From an uncultured Gammaproteobacteria bacterium (lineage in GTDB: Bacteria; Patescibacteriota; Patescibacteriia; Magasanikbacterales; GWA2-37-8): a stretch of 64,000 nt of DNA. A model generated the notes under the pieces. It saw nothing but the letters and a program-made list of their open reading frames with translations, was not told the origin of the DNA and searched no databases. The stretch is taken from assembly GCA_964439885.1 (NCBI GenBank), contig CAYTPE010000001.1, positions 9,031 through 73,030 on the forward strand, in the 5' to 3' direction. This document shows, in pieces, positions 46,194 to 59,145 of the stretch (position 1 is the first letter of the stretch; every line of letters begins with the position of its first letter). A program made the translations under genes and the position numbers.

Positions 46194-46222
46194 TTGCTGA
46201 AAGAGCAATTTTTTGTTATAAT
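46194..46222 (+). promoter_or_regulatory. sigma70-type promoter with extended -10 (TTGCTG-17-TGtTATAAT) for the giant surface-protein gene
   Basis: TTGCTGaaagagcaattttttgtTATAAT, 36 nt upstream of ATG 46258. Confidence 0.45.
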
Positions 46223-46257: not shown

Positions 46258-49200
46258 ATGCATTTGGGAAGTGCTCGTACAATAGCTGCACAATTAGGCC
46301 GCATTACCGGCTATTTTTTGCTTTTTGTACTTGCTTTAGGGGGCCTTTTTGTTGATCCGTTTGTATCGACAGCTGCCACTGGTGTACCTAAAATTTTCAC
46401 CTATCAGGGTCGTTTGCTTGATGGGGCGGGGAATTTGCTTGGTGGCAATGGTACCAACTATTGTTTCCGTTTCTCGCTGTACGACAACGCCACCGTCGGG
46501 CAGGGCGCAAAGGTATGGCCGGCAGGAGTTCCGTCTACCATGACGCTACAAGTTAAGAGCGGTGTTTTCAACGGCGCAATCGGCGATCTTGCTGCGGGAG
46601 GGGATTTGCTTGATTATAATTTTCAGGATTCCGATGAGGTGTACTTGAACGTAGAAGTAGCAGCCCAGGTGGGTGGCTCATGCGCGGGTGTGGCATTCGA
46701 AACACTGGCTCCACGTCAGCGTGTGACTGCTAGCGGTTATGCCATCAACGCGAACACAGATGGCGGATTTACCACATCGCAGATTGCAACAGGCAGCCAG
46801 ATTCCCGTGCACACCAATGGTGCTATCGTGCTTGGTGGTGCCACTGCCGGGCTCAGTGCTACCAACGCAAACCCGCTTCTTTTGCAGGGGAGTGGTAGTG
46901 GTGACATTCAATTTTTTTCTGCACTGAATAAACTTTCTTCTGCCGGTAATTTAACATTGGCCGGATCACTCACTGCCAACGGCGCACTTCTCATCAACAA
47001 TGACGCGACTATTACTGGCACAACGACGTTGGCAACAACGAGTATTTCCAAAGCAACAATTGCGAATGCTACGGTGAATAATTTAACTGTAACGGGGGTG
47101 TGTTTTGGTTGTGGTGGGGGGGGGGCGGCAGGTGGGGTGAACACATCAACGGCAGGATACATGGCGTATTATCTGAATGGCACAAGCGTAACGGGCACAA
47201 GCATGGTGACCTTTGCTGGTAACACATTTACGGTTTCAGGTTTGTCTGTATTTACTGCTACCGCAACTTTTGCCACAACAAGCATTACGAACGCCGCTAT
47301 TGGCTCTGCTTCAGTAGGAAATTTGGTAGCTACAAACAGTACATCGACAAATAGCTTTGCTGAGGGGCTTGCTTATACCAATTTGTCTGGTGTCAATGCT
47401 ACTTCGACAAATTTGTTTGCGTCACAATTTAATTTTGTGAATGCAAATGGAACGAGTCTGACTTCTACGAATGCATTTTTTTCTAATTTAGCTGTAGGTA
47501 ATTTCAGTCCGACGAATTTGTCGACTTCTAACATTACCACTACCAATTTTGTCGCGACGGGCGCGGTGAGTCTGCCAGTTAACTCGGTGACCGACGCGAT
47601 GGTTTCGAACTCTTTGACTATTGACAACACGGGAAATATTTCCGCTACCGCTATCAATTCGGGAACACTTGGTAACAATGCTGTCACGTTGGCTCTCGGA
47701 TCTTTTGGCTCGATCACTGGAGCGCTTGGAGATGCCAACGTAGCGGACAATCTTACCATCAACGGTGGCACTATTAACAACACAACGATTGGCGCGTCGA
47801 GCCCCTCCACGGGTGTGTTTACGAACGCGACAGCTACCAATTTTGTTGCCTCGAATGTTACCACTACTAATTTGGCAGTGACGGGAGCACTAAGTGTGAC
47901 CTCACTCAACCCCACGAATTTGGCTTGGGTAAACGCCACGGGAACGAACAGTATTCTGAACAATGTAACAAGTACGAATTTGTCCGTCTCTGGCTTAACC
48001 ACTCTCGCCAACACCACCTTGACCAACGCCACCTCCACCAACTTCAACACCGTTGGCCTCACCTTCACCAACGCCACGGGCACCAACAGTGTCTTCACGA
48101 ACGCTACCAGTACCAACCTCTTTAGCACTGGCCTTGCCTTCACCAACTTAAACGGTACGAATGCCACCTCCACCAACTTCTTTGCCACCAACCTCGCGAG
48201 CCTTGGCCTGACCAGCACCTACGGCAACCTCTCCTTTATCACCGCCACCGGTGTCACCTCCACCAACGCGAGCTTTACGAACCTCAGTGCTGCCACCTTC
48301 AACCCCACCAATCTCACCTGGACCAACGCCACGGGGACCAACAGCGTCCTGACCAATGTGACCAGCACCAACCTCGCCGTCAGTGGCCTGGTTGCCTTAA
48401 CAGGGAACACCACCTTGACCAACGCCACCTCCACCAACCTCTTCTCAACCGGCCTCGCCTTCACCAACCTCTCTGGTACCAACGGAACAAGTACCAATTT
48501 CTTTGCCACGAACCTCGCGAGCCTTGGCATTACGTCCACGTATGGCACCATTACCTTCTTAACAACCAGCGGCATCACCTCAACCAACGCGAGCTTGACC
48601 AACGTTACCTCCACCAACCTGTCCGTCTCTGGCTTAACCACTCTCGCCAACACCACCTTGACCAACGCCACCTCCACCAACTTCAACACCGTTGGCCTCA
48701 CCTTCACCAACGCCACGGGCACCAACAGTGTCTTCACGAACGCTACCAGTACCAACCTCTTTAGCACTGGCCTTGCCTTCACCAACTTAAACGGTACGAA
48801 TGCCACCTCCACCAACTTCTTTGCCACCAACCTCGCGAGCCTTGGCCTGACCAGCACCTACGGCAACCTCTCCTTTATCACCGCCACCGGTGTCACCTCC
48901 ACCAACGCGAGCTTTACGAACCTCAGTGCTGCCACCTTCAACCCCACCAATCTCACCTGGACCAACGCCACGGGGACCAACAGCGTCCTGACCAATGTGA
49001 CCAGCACCAACCTCGCCGTCAGTGGCCTGGTTGCCTTAACAGGGAACACCACCTTGACCAACGCCACCTCCACCAACCTCTTCTCAACCGGTTTGGCATT
49101 TACTAATCTCAATGGTACCAATGGAACCAGCACCAACTTCTTTGCCACCAACCTCAGCAGTCTTGGCAGTACTTCCACCTACGGTAACATCTCCTTCATC

Positions 49201-52200
49201 ACGGCTAGTGGCATCACATCGACTAATGGTAATTTCACTAATTTAACAGCTTCGAACTTCATTCCAACCAATCTCACCTGGGTGAGTGCCACCGGTACCA
49301 ACACCGTTCTAACCAACGCCACATCAACCAACTTAAATACGGTTGGGTTAACCTTTACGAATGCCACGGGGACCAACGCTGTCTTGACCAACGCCACGTC
49401 AACCAACCTCTTCTCAACAGGTCTGGCATTTACTAACTTGAACGGCACGAACGCAACGAGCACCAACTTTTTTGCCACCAACCTAAGTAGTCTCGGGCTC
49501 ACCACTACGTATGAGAAAAGTACATTCCTTGTAGCGACAAATGCTACTTCAACTAATTCTTTTGTCACTAATCTATCAAGTCTAGGCATAACATCCACAT
49601 ACGCAAATCTTGGTTTCTTGGTAGGTACTAATATTACTTCAACAAATCAATACAGCAACGGTCTCACCTTTAATATCGCCACAGGTACCTCTATCACTAC
49701 TACAAATGCATATATCGCAAGTTTGGTCGTCGGCACATGTACGGGTTGTGGTGGCGGTGCGGCAAGCGGTGGTGTAAATACTTCGACAGCTGGAAATTTT
49801 GCTTATTATCAGGGTGCCAGCTCAGTCACCGGTACATCTGCCCTTACCTTGTCTGGTACGAATATTACTGCGAATGGCGCAGTAGCCTTAACTGCTACTA
49901 CCACCGCCACCAATCGTTTTATTAACACCATATCAAGCGGCTCAAATATATCAGTGGTCGGCAGCGTTGCTCTTGCCAACTCAGGTTCTAAACCATACAA
50001 CCTAGTACTTCGAGGACGGTATGCCTATGTAACAAATTTCGCTAGTTCTACCATATCTGTGGTTGATTTAAGCAATCCGGCAGCACCAACTGTAATTAAT
50101 ACAATTAGCGTTGGAATTAACGTCGGGCCAACAGGCATCGATAATGATAGTAGATATTTGTATGTTGCCGCGTCGTCTACGCCAAGCCTTTATATTTACG
50201 ATCTTTCAACTGCAGCAGCCCCGTCTCAAGTTGGTCAGTCGCTTTTGTCTTTTTCACCAACAGATATAGGAGTAGATGGTCATTTTGTCCTACTTCCGTC
50301 TCCGAGCTTTGGTCAGGTCCAAATTCGTGATATTAAATATCCAAATAATGTATCATCTGTTCCTGGCTTGGGTGGTGTTACTGGTGGAACCCGCATTACT
50401 ATCTTTGGTAAATATGCCTACTACTCGGGCTCTTCCAATCTGTATATTGCTGACGCCTCCAACCCTGCCTCAATGGTTGTTAATGGTAGTATTGCTATGC
50501 CTAATCAGGTTAATGGCGTGTATGTTGTAGACCGATACGCGTACGTATTAAATGGAGGCTCGTTAAACGTAGTTGATATTAGTACGCCCAGCGCTCCAGT
50601 AAATGTTGCGACCACTTCAATCGGCGGCACTCTCTGGGGAGTGGCTGGTACTGGCCGCTATCTCTACATTACAGATAAAGCCAACAGCTCCGTTGATGTC
50701 GTAGACGTGGCAAGCTCTACCAACCCAGTCTTAGTAAAAACCATTACAGGCTTTGCTTCACCGCAAGGCATCGCCGTTAACGGAAGATACGCCTACGTTG
50801 TAGATAATGGTGATGGTACTCTCTATGTAATTGATTTACAGGGAACGGAAGTGAGCTCTCTGGTGGCATATTCTGCCGATGTCGGTTCACAACAAATTAG
50901 AAATGATCTCTACATTGGCAACAAAGCTTTTGTGCTTGGAGGGTTGACTGTTGGTAGTTTGGGCATCGCGTCAGCCGGAGATCTTGTGGTCCAAGGCACC
51001 GGCAATTCTACACTAGCCGGCGCTTTGGTTGTTTCGTCATCCATTTCAGCAAGTGCTTTTTCTGTGTCTGATAATTCATTTTATACAAGTGTAGGAACAA
51101 CCTATATAACAAATCTAAACGCTACTAGCATTACCTCCACCAACCTCTTTTCTACCGGTCTCACCTTTACTAACGCTACAGGTACCAAGGCCATTTTCAC
51201 GAGCGCCACCTCGACGAATTTGTATACAACAAACGGCGTGTTTACTAATGCCACTACTACCAACCTGTATTCAAACGGGTTGGTCTTCTCACGCGCCACA
51301 AGTACGGCATTAACTTCCACCATCGCATACATCGGCAGCCTGACAGTCGGCAGCTGTTCAGGTTGTGGCGGCGGAGTCTCTTTGAGCGGCAATAATACAT
51401 GGAGCGGGCTAAATATATTTACCAATACTACCACATTAGCCACCACCACCATTTCAGGTATATTTGATGGTGATGCTAAATTCGTCCCAGCTAGCCCGAA
51501 TGGGAATGGTTTCCAAGTAATGAATTTAGAAAACGATGAGACGCTTTTCAGCGTCGGCCCTTCAGCAGGGAATGCTGATTTTGTGGCGATAGGGGATAGA
51601 AGTGCCGCGCTTACGACCACTACACTCTTATATGTTGATACCAAATCTGATGCTGGCGACCCCACGCCTCCACTGAGTGCGGACGGTGCTATCTATTATA
51701 ATTCGAATAGCAAAAAATTCCGGTGTTACGAAAATTCGTCATGGAAAAATTGTGATAGCGCTGCTAATGCTCAAACATTTACCGCCACAAGTACCTGGAA
51801 CAAGCCAAACGGTGTTACATATGTTACCGTGCGTTGTATTGGCGGTGGCGGTGGCGGTGGCGGCGGAAGTTCGAAGGCGGCTGGTGGTGCACGAGCTGGG
51901 GGCAGTGGCGGTGGCGGTGGCTCTGTGCTCATCAGAACATTTTTAGCTTCTGACGTAACATCTAGTATTGGTATTACTGTTGGCCAGCCAGGTGGGGCTG
52001 GCGCCGGCGGCGTAAACGGAGCCAACGGCACCAGCGGCAGCGCTGGTACTGCATCCAGTTTTGGCACGTATGTCACCTGTTATGGTGGTGGCGGCGGTTT
52101 TGGGGGCACAACTGCAGTGAATTCAGGTGGTACAGGTGGTGGTCACGGTGGTGCTGGTAATAGTGGCAGTGGTTCAGCTTCCACTGGCGGCTTGCCGGCT

Positions 52201-52704
52201 ACTGCCAGCAACGCAGTTGGTTTGTCGGGACAGGGTTCTGGTAGCAGCGCGGGTACGGCTTCTGGCCAACCATCCGAATGGGGTGGTGCTGCTGGTGGCG
52301 GATCTTCAATCACAGTAGCTAGTCAAAATGGCGGTACCTCGCTCTGGGGTTGTGGTGGCGGTGGCGCAGGTGGAAATATTACTACTGGTAACGTGGCCAA
52401 TGCACCAGGCGCTGGTGGTAACACCGGTGTTTGGGTTACGGCTGGCGGCGGCGGTGGAGCGGCTGGTTCAAGCGGTGCGGCTGGTACTAACGGCACCGAC
52501 GGAACGGGAGGAACCTCCTTGTTGTGCGGTAAAGGCGGCGGCGGTGGTGGATCTTCCACAAACGGTGCTAACAATGGCGGTACCGGTGGTAACGGTGGCG
52601 CTCCTGGCGGCGGCGGTGGTGGTGGTGGAGCCGGTACTACTACTGTTAATGGAGGTACTGGTGGCAGAGGAGGGGCAGGTGAGGTCGATGTATGGGCCTG
52701 GTAA
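46258..52704 (+). CDS. giant (2148 aa) secreted/cell-surface repeat protein: signal-anchor, Thr/Asn/Ser-rich ~106-aa tandem repeats, YVTN-type beta-propeller repeats, Gly-rich C-terminal domain
   Basis: N-terminal hydrophobic segment [15 protein letters not shown]. Low-complexity repeats of the form [46 protein letters not shown].... [29 protein letters not shown]... repeats (YVTN/LVIVD-like) follow. The final ~300 aa are about 45% Gly ([18 protein letters not shown]...[25 protein letters not shown]). Confidence 0.8.
47981..49258 (+). repeat. near-identical 639-bp (213-aa) tandem duplication inside the giant gene, itself composed of ~106-aa sub-repeats
   Basis: TGTCCGTCTCTGGCTTAACCACTCTCGCCAACACCACC... 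occurs at 47981 and again at 48620. Hundreds of following nucleotides are identical between the copies. Confidence 0.8.
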
Positions 52705-53872: not shown

Positions 53873-54307
53873 ATGAAATTCATACGTCAGCATGTGTTGG
53901 TTTTTGTTGTCGGAGCGATACTTTGTGTCGGTGGGGGATTTGTCGTGTATCAAAAAAAATGGGCGCCATTTGATTTTACCTCTCTTGTTCAAAAGCAGTT
54001 AACCGATGATGATAAACAGCGAATCGTACAAGTGGTAAGCCGGGTGGTGGAGCTCCCACGAAATGAAATTCCCGAGATAAATTTTGTCACCAAACTCGAT
54101 CGTCTCAAAACCCAAAGTTTTTTTGCTCAAGCCCAAACAGGCGATGTGGTGCTTATCTATCGCCAAGCCAAAAAAGCCTTTTTGTATCGATCCACTACCC
54201 ATCGACTTGTCAATCAGGCAACAGTTGTTCTGGTGTCTCAACCACCCGATGATACACTACTGCCCGATGGTGCTATCCCAGGGTTTGCGTTGCCCGGCAT
54301 GCACTAG
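53873..54307 (+). CDS. small N-terminally membrane-anchored protein (paralog pair member 1)
   Basis: 144 aa: transmembrane anchor, then ...ELPRNEIPEINFVTKLDRLKTQSFFAQAQTGDVVLIYRQAKKAFLY. Paralogous to the next gene. Confidence 0.5.
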   Translation: MKFIRQHVLVFVVGAILCVGGGFVVYQKKWAPFDFTSLVQKQLTDDDKQRIVQVVSRVVELPRNEIPEINFVTKLDRLKTQSFFAQAQTGDVVLIYRQAKKAFLYRSTTHRLVNQATVVLVSQPPDDTLLPDGAIPGFALPGMH

Positions 54308-54388
54308 CTCATTGTGGACAACCACTTTACTCGATTACAAAAATCATTTATACTGTAAGCATATTAACTATTAAATTTTACTTTCCGT

Positions 54389-54820
54389 ATGGAAACACGA
54401 GAAAAAATTATCATAGCGGTATTGGCAGCATTGGTGCTTGTTTTAGGTGGTACCACTTTTTATTACTCCAAAAAATTCGTTCAAGCCAAAGAAAATCCGC
54501 AGCAGTATGTGCAGCAAACAGTTGACTCGCTCGTCAAACAGGTTGGTCAGCTTATGGAGCTCCCGGCAGGTGAAGTTCCAACCGTTGCTACTGTTGTTGA
54601 TCCGGAAAAATTAAAAGGCCAACCATTTTTTGCTCATGCATCAGTAGGGGACAAAGTGCTCATTTACGGCAATGCTCGTAAAGTTGTCTTGTATAACCCA
54701 AACACAAACAAGATCGTCGAAGTTGCACCGCTCAGTATCGGCAATCCAACCGGCACGAACCAGCCAGCTCCTACGCCAACTCCAACTCAGCCTACTGAAA
54801 CTGACACTAACAAACAATAG
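54389..54820 (+). CDS. small N-terminally membrane-anchored protein (paralog pair member 2)
   Basis: 143 aa: ...ELPAGEVPTVATVVDPEKLKGQPFFAHASVGDKVLIYGNARKVVLY. Shares the ELP..E.P....V.....LK.Q.FFA.A..GD.VLIY..A.K..LY pattern with 53873-54307. Confidence 0.5.
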   Translation: METREKIIIAVLAALVLVLGGTTFYYSKKFVQAKENPQQYVQQTVDSLVKQVGQLMELPAGEVPTVATVVDPEKLKGQPFFAHASVGDKVLIYGNARKVVLYNPNTNKIVEVAPLSIGNPTGTNQPAPTPTPTQPTETDTNKQ

Positions 54821-54843
54821 TAGTTTATCTAAAGGGGACGTGT

Positions 54844-56145
54844 ATGCGCCTGGCTATTCTCAGCGTATGCCTGCTCGGCTGCATACTCACTCTGAGCGCG
54901 GTCGCGCGAGCTGAAACATTTTCTTCTCCGAGTTACACTTCTGCCGACCCGGTAGTGACTCTTCATGGTGGCTACGCGGCTTCACCGAGCTTTCAATTAT
55001 TTGGAAGTTCTGGCCCCATCGTCATCGGCGAAAGTACCAGTACGAACTTTGTGTATCGTACTGGTTTTCTTTATTTTCCCTTAGTAACCGCGCCGATCGC
55101 TGTGGCCACCCCCGGTAACGCTTCCGTAAATCTCACCTGGACAGCTGCCACAGCGGCACTCGGCTACACCATTAGTGGTTATGATGTCGGCGTGTCTGCG
55201 GCGGACGGAGGTCCGTACTCTTATTCAAATGTGGGAGACGTGCTGGCGCACACCGTGCAAGGGTTGCCCAACAACAGCGTTCGATATTTTGTGGTTAGAG
55301 CGAATGATTTTTATGGCAATCCTATTGCCACGTCATCGCAAGTTTCCGCTACACCTGTTGGCGGAAATAATAATCAAAATAATGCTGGAGGTGGTGGTGG
55401 GGGTGGGGGTGGGGGAGGCGCTGTCGCTACTACCATTCAGGCATCCGGCATTACGTTCCCCAGTGCTTTGGTGTATCTCGTGAAGGATGGTGTGATCATT
55501 GCTACTGCCGAGAGCACCGCGCAGGGCACCTTTTCTATCGGCCAGTCCGTGAGTCCAGGCACAGCGGTTTTTACCATCTATGCCGCTGATAAAAATGGCA
55601 ATCGTACCGGTTCCGTATCGTATACTACTGATGTCCAGTTCGGATCTACGACAAAGATAGAAAATATTGTGTTACCGCCTCTTGTTACAACCGATAAAGA
55701 GTCCGTCAAACCGGGCGATATCATTACCATCACCGGCAGAGGCGCGCCGAACTCGAATTCCGTTATCACCATTGATGAAATACCTGGTTTGCAGTTCAAA
55801 GTCACCCTCGATTCGAGTGGTACATTCTCCACTCCCTTCAAAGTGGCGGATCTCGGCAACGGTGCCTACAGCGTGCGCGCTCGGCTGGAGCGCAATGGGA
55901 CAGTGACGGGTCTCAGTCAACTGATACAATTTATTGTTGGCAATAAAACAGTTGATCGAACCGAACAACAGCAATGTTCAGAGGCAGATTTTAATTGTGA
56001 CGGTAAAGTTAATTTGATTGATTTTTCCATTTTGTTGTTCTGGTTTGAAAAAAAGAATCCACCGGATGCCATCGATCTGAATCATGACGGCAAAGTGGAT
56101 ATTATTGATTTTAGTATTCTTATGTACTATTGGACGGGTGGATAA
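54844..56145 (+). CDS. secreted protein with fibronectin type III-like domain, poly-Gly linker and C-terminal dockerin-type (type I) calcium-binding repeats
   Basis: Signal peptide MRLAILSVCLLGCILTLSAVARA. Fn3-like APIAVATPGNASVNLTWTAA..GYTISGYDV. Two dockerin-like repeats DFNCDGKVNLIDFSILLFWF and DLNHDGKVDIIDFSILMYYW. Confidence 0.65.
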   Translation: MRLAILSVCLLGCILTLSAVARAETFSSPSYTSADPVVTLHGGYAASPSFQLFGSSGPIVIGESTSTNFVYRTGFLYFPLVTAPIAVATPGNASVNLTWTAATAALGYTISGYDVGVSAADGGPYSYSNVGDVLAHTVQGLPNNSVRYFVVRANDFYGNPIATSSQVSATPVGGNNNQNNAGGGGGGGGGGGAVATTIQASGITFPSALVYLVKDGVIIATAESTAQGTFSIGQSVSPGTAVFTIYAADKNGNRTGSVSYTTDVQFGSTTKIENIVLPPLVTTDKESVKPGDIITITGRGAPNSNSVITIDEIPGLQFKVTLDSSGTFSTPFKVADLGNGAYSVRARLERNGTVTGLSQLIQFIVGNKTVDRTEQQQCSEADFNCDGKVNLIDFSILLFWFEKKNPPDAIDLNHDGKVDIIDFSILMYYWTGG

Positions 56146-56146
56146 T

Positions 56147-57112
56147 ATGCTTAAACATATATTTCGTACTTTGCTTTTCGCTGCATTCGCAGTAGCTGTC
56201 GCCATTCCTGCCGCAGCCGCGAGCGATCCGTCAATAGTGATGGTTTTTAGTCCTGCCACGGTGGCCGCATCACGCCCAGAAGGGGCTACACTTGATGTGG
56301 CTGTGAATACTGGGGCGGCCACCATCAATGCGCTCGAAGGCGAACTGGTGTATCCAGCCAAAGAGCTCGCTGTTGATCAGGTGCTCGATGGTGATTCGGT
56401 CGTTTCGCTCTGGGTAGAGCGACCCACGGTGGATGAGGCACATGGTACGATACGATTCAAAGGTTTGTCAGCCGGTGGTATAAGCACCGGTCATGGTCGC
56501 TTGTTTAAAATAACCTTTCACACGGTACAAACCTCAATCGACGGTGCGTCGCGGTCAATTGTGCAAGCTCGGAATGTGCGTGGATTTTTGAGCGATGGGC
56601 GAGGTACGCCGGTGCCGGTTATTGGTGGAAGCAGTGAATTGGCCGTGGTACCAAGTGCCAGTGAATTAATTCCAACAAGCACAGCAACTTCTTCAACGCA
56701 ACCAATCGATACGACTGCTCCTGACCCTTTTAAACCAGCCATTTCTCGGTATCCGTCACTCTACAACAATCAATGGTTTGTGGTGTTTGCTTCACGTGAT
56801 GGGGGAGGGGGGATAGATCGATACGAAGTTCAGGAAACAAAAAGTGCCACACCCAATCCTGAGCGTTGGATTGAAGTGGCGAGCCCGTATGTATTAAACG
56901 ATCAATCATTAGGTAGTTATGTGCACATACGGGCGCTCGACAAATCAGGTAATGAGAGAATTGAAACGATATCGCCTGCATCAGGTGCGCGTAATTCATA
57001 TACGAAACTCTTTTTTTGGTGTATACTACTAATCGTAGTACTTTTCGGTGGTTTTGTGGTATGGAAAAAACAGTCGCGACAAACCGACACACCACCCCAG
57101 ACACGCAGCTAA
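56147..57112 (+). CDS. membrane-anchored protein with cohesin-like N-terminal domain
   Basis: Start taken at ATG 56147 (MLKHIFRTLLFAAFAVAVAIPAAAA signal peptide). MVFSPATVAASRPEGATLDVAVNTGAATINALEGELVYPAKELAVDQ...FKITFHTVQ resembles cohesin domains. C-terminal transmembrane helix LFFWCILLIVVLFGGFVVW. Confidence 0.5.
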   Translation: MLKHIFRTLLFAAFAVAVAIPAAAASDPSIVMVFSPATVAASRPEGATLDVAVNTGAATINALEGELVYPAKELAVDQVLDGDSVVSLWVERPTVDEAHGTIRFKGLSAGGISTGHGRLFKITFHTVQTSIDGASRSIVQARNVRGFLSDGRGTPVPVIGGSSELAVVPSASELIPTSTATSSTQPIDTTAPDPFKPAISRYPSLYNNQWFVVFASRDGGGGIDRYEVQETKSATPNPERWIEVASPYVLNDQSLGSYVHIRALDKSGNERIETISPASGARNSYTKLFFWCILLIVVLFGGFVVWKKQSRQTDTPPQTRS

Positions 57113-59145
57113 ATGGGGGAGTGGTACGCAGATTTTTCTTCAGCGCAATAGTAGCCGCTGCTCTTTTTTTCGCTTTCCCTTTTTCCGCGCATGCCGCTTC
57201 TCTCACTTTTAGTCCGTCAAGTGGTACGTTCACCGTGGGGAGTACTTTTTCCATCACCGTACTACTCAACACTGAAGACGAAACAGCTAATACCATTCGC
57301 GCGCAAATCTCATATCCAGCGGATAAATTACAACTGGTTTCTCCTTCCACGGGCAATTCAGTCATTAGTATTTGGACAAGCTTGCCCAAAGTAGACAATC
57401 AACGAGGTATCGTCGATCTGCAAGGTGGCATTCCCGGCGGCATTAAGTCCACCGGTGCGGCTATTACAACTTTGGTTTTTCGAGTTAATTCTGTAGGAAA
57501 TGCCGTGGTTCGTTTTACCGATCAATCAAAAGTATTGTTGAATAATGGTCTCGGCACCGAAGCGCTACGCCAAGTAACTAACGGCGTCTACAATTTGGTT
57601 CTTCCGCCACCAGCGGGGCCCATTGTGAGCTCAGAAACACATCCCGATCAGACCAACTGGTATAATATCTCTACGGTCGTGCTCCGTTGGGCACCAGAAC
57701 AAAATGTTGATGGCTATAGTTACATGCTCAGTGAGAACCCGGGAGATGTGCCCGATGATATTTCCGAAGGCATCAACCAAAGCGTCACGTACAAAAATGT
57801 TCCCGATGGTATTCATTACTTCCACATCAAATCACTTAAAGACAAAGCTTGGGGTGGAGTCACGCATTTCGCCCTTAAAATAGATACCGCTGCCCCGGCG
57901 GCTTTTCCGGTTGATATTATCCCTGATGCGCGTACCAGTCGTCGTGAACCAATCGTGCAATTTTCTACCACCGATGGTCTATCGAGTGTGAGCCATTACG
58001 AACTGAAGCTTATTCCACTTTCACCGAGCGCCGATGGCGGCTTTAATGCGCAACCACTCTTTATCGAAGTCACAAGCCCGTACGTGTTTTCGGAATTACC
58101 AATTGGTAATTACGACGTGATCGTTCGAGCGTACGATTTTGCCGGCAATTATCAAGAAATTACGGAGCGCATGAGTATTGTCAATCCGGTCTTTACAGTC
58201 GTGCGAGGTGAAGGTGTTAAAATCGGATCCGCACTCACCATTCCATGGTATGTGTTCTGGATACTCATGGCCACGGGCATTCTTGCAATCGGGCTCATAT
58301 TTTGGCGCATTCGCAGTTGGCGCCATCGTATCATCGCGCAGCGTGCCAATCGAGAATTACCCCAAAAGCTCCAGCAGGATCTTGATGAACTGAAACGCTT
58401 TCGAGCGCGCTATGGTAAGCTTGCGGCGTGTTTGCTCATCATCGCGTTTGTAGCGCTGGCTCGGCCAGCTCGCGCCGATGTCGTCCAAGTGACGCCGCCG
58501 ATCGTGGACACCATTTCTCGTAACATCACAAACGAAGATATTTTTTATATCGGTGGAAAAACCGACACGGGCGGTAGTTCGGTTATCATTTATTTGCAAA
58601 ATCTTTCCACCGGAGAAACACTCACCGAAGTCGTGCCCGTCGATAATCGCGGCAACTGGTTCTATCGCCACGGTTCGTTTCTTTCGAGTGGTGAATATTT
58701 GCTCTGGACGCAAAATAAAATTGGTAACGAAATCAGTCCGCCGAGCCCGCAAGAAAAACTGAAAGTCAGTACTTCTGTTGTACACCTCGGCACGTCACGC
58801 ATCAGCGTCGAAACGATCAATGGCGCGGTGGCCGCTGTCGCGCTCCTTGGTTTCCTGATTTTATTGTTCTACACACTATACCATGCGCGCCATGTGCATC
58901 GTGAGCGCAAGGCGCTCCTTACCGAAATTCGCACCGCCGAGGAGTCCGTACGTCGCGGATTTGCCGTCATTCGCCGTGATATTCAAGCAGAGCTGGAGCT
59001 TGTACACAAAGTAAAACTCGAGAAAAATTTGTCCGATGATGAGCGCACGCGCGAGGAACAGCTCCTCAAAGATTTGGAAGCGATCGAGCAAAATATTGGC
59101 AAGGAAATTTGGGAGATCGACCACTTAGAGGCCCAATTACGTTAA
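57061..59145 (+). CDS. large multi-domain membrane protein with cohesin-like N-terminal domain, Fn3-like domain, three transmembrane segments and C-terminal coiled coil
   Basis: Start ambiguous: ATG 57061 overlaps the upstream gene by 52 nt; an in-frame GTG at 57121 would give MVRRFFFSAIVAAALFFAFPFSAHA as a signal peptide. LTFSPSSGTFTVGSTFSITVLLNTEDETANTIRAQISYPADKLQLVSP is paralogous to the previous gene's cohesin-like domain. Confidence 0.55.
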   Translation: MEKTVATNRHTTPDTQLNGGVVRRFFFSAIVAAALFFAFPFSAHAASLTFSPSSGTFTVGSTFSITVLLNTEDETANTIRAQISYPADKLQLVSPSTGNSVISIWTSLPKVDNQRGIVDLQGGIPGGIKSTGAAITTLVFRVNSVGNAVVRFTDQSKVLLNNGLGTEALRQVTNGVYNLVLPPPAGPIVSSETHPDQTNWYNISTVVLRWAPEQNVDGYSYMLSENPGDVPDDISEGINQSVTYKNVPDGIHYFHIKSLKDKAWGGVTHFALKIDTAAPAAFPVDIIPDARTSRREPIVQFSTTDGLSSVSHYELKLIPLSPSADGGFNAQPLFIEVTSPYVFSELPIGNYDVIVRAYDFAGNYQEITERMSIVNPVFTVVRGEGVKIGSALTIPWYVFWILMATGILAIGLIFWRIRSWRHRIIAQRANRELPQKLQQDLDELKRFRARYGKLAACLLIIAFVALARPARADVVQVTPPIVDTISRNITNEDIFYIGGKTDTGGSSVIIYLQNLSTGETLTEVVPVDNRGNWFYRHGSFLSSGEYLLWTQNKIGNEISPPSPQEKLKVSTSVVHLGTSRISVETINGAVAAVALLGFLILLFYTLYHARHVHRERKALLTEIRTAEESVRRGFAVIRRDIQAELELVHKVKLEKNLSDDERTREEQLLKDLEAIEQNIGKEIWEIDHLEAQLR

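What the first reader, a model, noticed from the sequence alone, without database searches (positions are those of the whole stretch)
46258..52704. 2148-aa surface protein combining Thr/Asn tandem repeats, a YVTN beta-propeller and a ~45% glycine C-terminal domain
The architecture suggests a large secreted adhesin or S-layer-like protein: signal-anchor, about 110 kDa of TNATSTNLF-type ~106-aa repeats (potential O-glycosylation substrate for the upstream glycan cluster), about 40 kDa of LVIVD/YVTN-like propeller blades, then an extraordinarily Gly-rich tail ([15 protein letters not shown]...[36 protein letters not shown]) of unknown function ending in a hydrophobic/aromatic motif. Many antisense ORFs in the track are artefacts of the repeats. 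A strong extended -10 promoter sits upstream.
Basis: seen in the sequence. Interest (0 to 1): 0.55.

Follow-up and report, generated by a model that had tools for sequence, protein, structure and literature searches.

The report
Giant surface fibre with phage-like tip
This 2148-residue gene of an uncultured ultrasmall (Patescibacteria-type) bacterium encodes an exported surface fibre, and its glycine-rich end is not an unknown tail but the same kind of domain found on phage tail fibres, where it is thought to bind the host; this makes the protein a candidate for how such bacteria attach to other cells.

Summary
The Thr/Asn region is 82 kDa, the seven-blade LVIVD propeller 31 kDa, and the C-terminal domain 37.5% Gly.

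The Thr/Asn repeats have a 5-residue period (TN[LFA]xx, pentapeptide-like). The fold of this stalk is unresolved.

Residues ~41-240 form an unannotated module. It always sits just after a signal peptide in ~960 cluster representatives of large Patescibacteria proteins, whose distal domains vary (Gly_rich_2, S74 chaperone, Laminin_G_3, Ig-like). Cohesin/dockerin-like membrane protein genes are syntenic.

Best reading: a mosaic surface adhesin, analogous to Bdellovibrio MAT fibres. Adhesion itself is inferred. A 472-nt exact repeat makes the copy number uncertain.

The parts
46214..46222 (+). Extended -10-like motif TGTTATAAT (weak -35 TTGCTG at 46195-46200)
   Evidence: Read directly from the sequence. 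Not listed by the consensus scan, which found no excess of promoter-like sites over shuffles. Motif match only.
46258..52704 (+). Giant ORF, 2148 aa, 211.8 kDa
46258..46377 (+). Signal peptide-like N-terminus (aa 1-~40): basic n-region, 17-residue hydrophobic core, STA/AT before the conserved mature start
   Evidence: An alignment of 62 homologues shows a variable hydrophobic segment followed by conserved A(A/T)GVPKI. Cleavage is inferred, not predicted by a tool.
46378..46977 (+). Family-defining N-terminal module (aa ~41-240); the first ~110 residues form a confident beta-sandwich
   Evidence: 55-69% identity to 71 of 78 giant homologues. 958 cluster representatives at E<=1e-3, always at residues ~25-45 to ~240. 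263 loci in GTDB species genomes, Patescibacteria names among them. No Pfam or PDB sequence match. AF2 pLDDT ~90 for aa ~47-158. No relative found in IMG/VR viral contigs.
47101..47121 (+). Junction motif 1: C-F-G-C-G-G-G (aa 282-288)
   Evidence: DNA family D3
47293..49737 (+). Thr/Asn-rich repeat stalk (aa 346-1160, 82 kDa): 5-residue period TN[LFA]xx with 107- and 213-aa higher-order repeats
47981..48452 (+). First copy of a 472-nt exact direct repeat (second copy 48620-49091; offset 639 nt = 213 codons)
   Evidence: GC3 0.77-0.82 in this block against 0.33-0.50 elsewhere
48620..49091 (+). Second copy of the 472-nt exact direct repeat
49738..49758 (+). Junction motif 2: C-T-G-C-G-G-G (aa 1161-1167)
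49978..50877 (+). Seven-blade LVIVD beta-propeller (aa 1241-1540, 31 kDa)
   Evidence: PF08309 1.6e-19, 69 bits against a cut-off of 20.2. Seven [GDS][RKH][YF]xYV-type blade motifs at aa 1253, 1298, 1341, 1384, 1425, 1466 and 1509.
51100..51351 (+). Second, short Thr/Asn repeat block (aa 1615-1698)
51355..51375 (+). Junction motif 3: C-S-G-C-G-G-G (aa 1700-1706)
51376..51765 (+). Neck region (aa 1707-1836), including the hairpin motif [23 protein letters not shown]
   Evidence: Shared with 19 family proteins. AF2 gives short beta-hairpins at pLDDT 54-74.
51766..52701 (+). C-terminal glycine-rich 'brush' domain (aa 1837-2148, 37.5% Gly), Pfam Gly_rich_2
53873..59145 (+). Syntenic cluster of surface/membrane protein genes: 144-aa and 143-aa TM paralogues, a 433-aa dockerin protein, a 342-aa C-terminally anchored protein, and a 709-aa cohesin-like TM protein
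   Evidence: Pfam dockerin 2.3e-8, and cohesin 3.2e-4 (21.4 bits, below the 24.1 cut-off). Homologues lie next to giant-family genes in the ~83 related loci: 23 (w433), 20 (w342), 18 (w709) and 13 (w143).

Best explanation
The gene encodes a Sec-exported, roughly 210-kDa modular surface fibre of a Patescibacteria (CPR) bacterium.

It belongs to a widespread, unannotated family. The N-terminal ~200 residues of family members are nearly invariant, and the distal parts are mosaic.

Proposed mechanism:
- The signal peptide directs export.
- The conserved N-terminal module holds the fibre at the producer's envelope. It may dock onto the syntenic membrane proteins that carry cohesin-like domains.
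- The 815-residue Thr/Asn repeat region has a 5-residue period and acts as a rigid beta-solenoid-type spacer.
- A seven-blade LVIVD propeller and the terminal glycine-rich brush domain are presented distally as ligand-binding modules. By analogy with its solved relatives, the brush domain is taken to be a beta-sandwich carrying a bundle of polyglycine-II segments.
- The brush domain is homologous to tip domains of phage tail fibres and tail appendages. It most likely binds a component of another cell's envelope, so the fibre would mediate attachment to a host or partner cell.

Shown here: the ORF, the domain identities, homology of the tip to phage tail proteins, the family's architecture and taxonomic spread, and the synteny.

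Inferred: signal cleavage, the anchoring mode, the stalk fold and oligomeric state, and the adhesive function and its target.
For: ORF and composition.

Cellular context. DnaG, RpoD and MurG lie directly upstream. No phage genes were found among the neighbours scanned.

Signal-like N-terminus: variable, and followed by the conserved mature start.

N-terminal module:
- 71 of 78 giant homologues share it at 55-69% identity.
- 958/626/305 cluster representatives match at E<=1e-3/1e-10/1e-30, always directly after the N-terminus.
- 263 loci occur in species-representative genomes. Named ones include Magasanikbacteria, Paceibacterota, Uhrbacteria and Nomurabacteria.
- The module was not found in 2.9 million viral contigs.

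Mosaic distal domains in family members: Gly_rich_2, Peptidase_S74, Laminin_G_3, Ig-like, Peptidase_G2, Mtd_N, LVIVD.

Tip domain:
- PF21722 scores above its cut-off. PHROG 863 'tail fiber assembly' matches at 2e-14.
- Two of the closest homologues, the only two examined, sit in phage tail modules between tail tube/tape-measure-size genes and lysis genes.
- The AF2 model is confident.
- A profile of the family finds gp33 at 4.3e-14 and Pam3 gp24 at 2e-6 by sequence.
- Conserved Gly motifs alternate with variable segments. The Pam3 authors proposed that such a domain in gp24 recognises the host receptor (PMC9608196). Brush domains are described as candidate anti-receptors (PMC13243795).

Synteny with dockerin/cohesin-like membrane proteins.

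Biological background: cultivated Saccharibacteria require multiple predicted surface adhesins for epibiotic growth (PMC10633639, PMC11665869).
Against: - No experiment links any member of this family to adhesion.
- The organism is uncultured, and its lifestyle is assumed from its phylum.
- The role of Bxb1 gp33 itself is unproven. A mutant deleted for gene 30, on which gp33 assembly is thought to depend, is viable, and a related phage lacks the gene 33 homologue (PMC12646305).
- In several family members the Gly-rich domain is internal rather than terminal. A strict 'tip' role therefore does not hold for the whole family.
- The stalk model is of low confidence, pLDDT 50-77, and no Pfam pentapeptide model matches.
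- No anchoring motif was identified, and the proposed docking onto cohesin-like proteins rests on synteny alone.
- The cohesin match is below Pfam's cut-off, 21.4 against 24.1 bits.
Confidence: 0.6

Rival explanations
1. Structural envelope or S-layer-type protein. It forms part of a surface coat, perhaps heavily glycosylated on Thr/Asn/Ser, and has no specific ligand-binding role.
For: LVIVD repeats are, from general knowledge of the family, typical of archaeal and bacterial cell-surface proteins. Composition is 24% Thr, 16% Asn and 12% Ser in the repeats. There are 65 N-x-S/T sequons against 46 +/- 5 in shuffles. A sugar-biosynthesis and glycosyltransferase cluster lies in the same window.
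Against: No S-layer-type domain appeared in Pfam or NCBIfam. Family members keep the N-terminus but swap distal domains, which is the pattern of adhesins and tail fibres rather than lattice proteins. The distal domain is homologous to phage tail appendage domains. The glycan cluster is 20 kb away, behind unrelated housekeeping genes.
Confidence: 0.1
2. The fibre is real, but it binds something other than a host bacterium. Candidates are a polysaccharide or mineral surface, or sister cells (aggregation or biofilm).
For: Propellers and glycine-rich brush domains have no known fixed ligand class. Unattached Patescibacteria cells are common in nature (PMC11665869). A dockerin/cohesin-like cluster is syntenic; from general knowledge, such modules are used elsewhere to assemble substrate-binding complexes.
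Against: All solved relatives of the tip domain sit on phage tails, which contact bacterial envelopes. This does not exclude other ligands.
Confidence: 0.2
3. A phage or tailocin tail-fibre gene, meaning a prophage remnant rather than a cellular surface protein.
For: The two close relatives of the Gly-rich domain that were examined are in phage tail modules. PHROG tail families match. NCBI names one family member 'tail fiber domain-containing protein'.
Against: The protein has a Sec-type signal sequence; from general knowledge, tail fibres assembled in the cytoplasm do not carry one. Its neighbours are DnaG, RpoD, MurG and surface-protein genes, with no capsid, terminase, tube or baseplate gene found. 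The N-terminal module occurs at 263 loci in species-representative genomes (Patescibacteria names among them), with recurring cellular synteny in a subset. No relative was found in IMG/VR viral contigs.
Confidence: 0.04
4. Assembly artefact in the repeat block. The gene exists, but the number of 639-nt units (and so the stalk length) is wrong, or the block is chimeric.
For: The 472-nt exact direct repeat is longer than a typical short read. The block has codon usage unlike the rest of the gene, GC3 0.8 against 0.4. The exact protein sequence is absent from a 15-billion-protein collection, although three neighbouring proteins of the same 74-kb NCBI contig are present.
Against: The frame is intact across all repeats, and the repeat offset is a multiple of 3. 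Homologues in independent assemblies carry similar long Thr/Asn repeat regions (P0070, P0078, P0063). This issue does not affect any of the domain assignments.
Confidence: 0.25

Closest known systems
Phage glycine-rich 'brush' or polyglycine-rich tip domains: mycobacteriophage Bxb1 gp33 tail wing brush (PDB 9D93), cyanophage Pam3 fibre gp24 (7YPX/7YFW); Pfam PF21722 Gly_rich_2
Bdellovibrio bacteriovorus MAT (mosaic adhesive trimer) fibres (PMC10769870)
   Same: Both are cell-surface fibres of a bacterium that lives on other bacteria. Both have an invariant N-terminal domain and exchanged C-terminal domains. Both families split into members with and without the S74 chaperone. Both have phage-like modules and an N-terminal domain with no structural homologue.
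   Different: Homology of the N-terminal modules was not tested, because no MAT sequence was available. This protein has no S74 domain. Its stalk is a 5-residue-period Thr/Asn repeat rather than the MAT beta-prism. Trimerisation is unproven. It carries an LVIVD propeller and a Gly_rich_2 domain, which are not among the MAT tips in the passages read. The producer is from a monoderm phylum.
Pentapeptide-repeat proteins (Qnr, MfpA, Rfr; A(D/N)LXX right-handed quadrilateral beta-helix)
   Different: No Pfam pentapeptide model matches. Thr replaces Ala at i-2. The register is broken by TYGNxSF insertions, so the higher-order period is 107, not a multiple of 5. AF2 confidence is low. At 815 residues the region is extracellular and several times longer than the 180-216-residue PRP chains matched.
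ALK/LTK receptor glycine-rich domain (TNF-like plus polyglycine-II lattice; PDB 7LRZ, 7LS0, 7NX3)
   Different: The resemblance is fold-level only, with no sequence match. The biology is different: a metazoan receptor ectodomain.

Membership tests
Pfam PF21722 Gly_rich_2 (phage-type glycine-rich brush domain) | Profile HMM score above the curated cut-off | tested here: met
   35.1 bits against a cut-off of 24.3, E 1.8e-8, when aa 1806-2148 are scanned alone. Not reported when the whole 2148-aa protein is scanned.
Pfam PF21722 Gly_rich_2 (phage-type glycine-rich brush domain) | Fold of the solved members (Bxb1 gp33, Pam3 gp24), whose glycine-rich segments are described as polyglycine/polyproline-II bundles | tested here: met
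Pfam PF21722 Gly_rich_2 (phage-type glycine-rich brush domain) | Sequence hallmarks: an F-T-x-x-G-T-W-x-K-P strand, V[12 protein letters not shown], and a terminal G-E-V-x-V-x-x-W strand at the chain end | tested here: met
   Alignment with 59 homologues and profile alignment to gp33.
Pfam PF21722 Gly_rich_2 (phage-type glycine-rich brush domain) | Binds a cell-surface receptor | not testable with these tools
   This is proposed, not proven, even for the phage members (PMC9608196, PMC13243795, PMC12646305).
LVIVD beta-propeller (PF08309) | Repeat HMM above the cut-off, and a blade count compatible with a closed propeller | tested here: met
   69.4 bits against 20.2, with 5 stretches. Seven blade motifs 41-45 aa apart. 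No YVTN-named NCBIfam model appeared at E<=1.
Pentapeptide-repeat family (PF00805 and relatives) | Match to a Pfam pentapeptide model | tested here: not met
   No hit at E<=10 on three repeat segments or on the whole protein. Only sub-threshold NCBIfam Qnr/HetL hits, 14-20 bits against cut-offs of 260-490.
Pentapeptide-repeat family (PF00805 and relatives) | 5-residue period with the A(D/N)LXX pattern | tested here: met
   Identity is 0.219 at lags that are multiples of 5, against 0.114 otherwise. In-register alignment to ANLxx solenoids, E 6e-4. Thr replaces Ala at i-2.
Pentapeptide-repeat family (PF00805 and relatives) | Right-handed quadrilateral beta-helix fold | tested here: inconclusive
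Mosaic trimeric fibres (phage tail fibres; Bdellovibrio MAT) | Conserved N-terminal attachment domain with exchanged distal binding domains | tested here: met
Mosaic trimeric fibres (phage tail fibres; Bdellovibrio MAT) | Homotrimeric assembly | not testable with these tools
   Only monomer prediction was available. The S74 intramolecular chaperone is present in sister proteins. From general knowledge of phage fibres and spikes, S74 accompanies trimeric assemblies. It is absent from this protein.
Mosaic trimeric fibres (phage tail fibres; Bdellovibrio MAT) | Sequence or fold homology of the N-terminal domain to the MAT N-terminal domain | not tested
C-terminal sorting signals (LPXTG, PEP-CTERM, T9SS CTD and similar) | A recognisable motif followed by a hydrophobic segment and basic tail, or a dedicated CTD | tested here: not met
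   The sequence ends ...[14 protein letters not shown], with no LPXTG-like motif plus TM segment plus basic tail. The last strand is conserved in the phage homologues, where it also ends the chain. No such Pfam or NCBIfam hit was found.
S-layer proteins | SLH or another recognised S-layer domain | tested here: not met
   None appeared in the Pfam or NCBIfam scans.

The most novel reading that the evidence does not exclude
Patescibacteria as a phylum possess a large family of Sec-exported modular fibres. All are held at the cell by one invariant, still unannotated N-terminal module, perhaps docked on a syntenic cohesin/dockerin-like membrane scaffold. Their distal receptor-binding modules are exchanged with phage tail fibres. 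The repertoire of these fibres would then determine which host cells an episymbiont can recognise, making them a cellular counterpart of phage host-range determinants.
Probability: 0.3. Interest if true: 0.75.

Novelty: new variant of a known kind. Interest (0 to 1): 0.5.

Why it matters
How ultrasmall episymbiotic bacteria recognise and hold on to their hosts is largely unknown. So far only type IV pili and unnamed "predicted adhesins" have been implicated, in the few cultivated Saccharibacteria.

This gene belongs to a family with three useful properties:
- It is easy to find, through its invariant N-terminal module.
- It is widespread: about 960 cluster representatives and 263 loci in species-representative genomes.
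- It carries swappable modules homologous to phage tail proteins.

If the fibres do bind host envelopes, tip type could be used to predict hosts of uncultured Patescibacteria. The tips could also serve as affinity reagents to pull down hosts.

The result also extends the known range of the polyglycine-II "brush" domain from virions to cellular surface proteins.

If the protein turns out to be a generic coat protein, the finding is ordinary.

Tried and rejected
- Tandem Repeats Finder reported nothing. The repeat period, 639 nt with 318/321-nt sub-units at 63-70% identity, exceeds or falls below its limits. The repeat finder and a lag scan recovered the repeats.
- The whole-protein Pfam scan missed Gly_rich_2. 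It appeared only when the C-terminus was scanned alone.
- A single-sequence search of the Gly domain against the PDB found nothing meaningful. The family profile did.
- Pfam pentapeptide models did not match any repeat segment, so I do not file the stalk as a pentapeptide-repeat protein.
- A profile of the N-terminal module against the PDB gave no hit to the module.
- Three scans of IMG/VR for the Gly domain failed, and their cause was not established. Two matched patterns, but tblastn confirmed none. tblastn against GenBank phages also found nothing; there the low-complexity filter may be masking the query. The phage context comes instead.
- I tried to recover the source record. The neighbours are in the protein collection (NCBI, 74,362-bp contig) but the giant protein is not. 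Look-ups of MurG and the 433-aa protein returned no gene on record. The organism is therefore inferred only from homologues.
- Literature searches for PF21722, and for Patescibacteria/CPR together with tail fibre, found no description of this family. The library is incomplete, so this is not proof of novelty.
- Rejected: the C-terminal aromatic motif as a sorting signal.
- Rejected: the prophage reading.
- Rejected: a functional link to the upstream glycan cluster, on distance and lack of any protein glycosyltransferase evidence.
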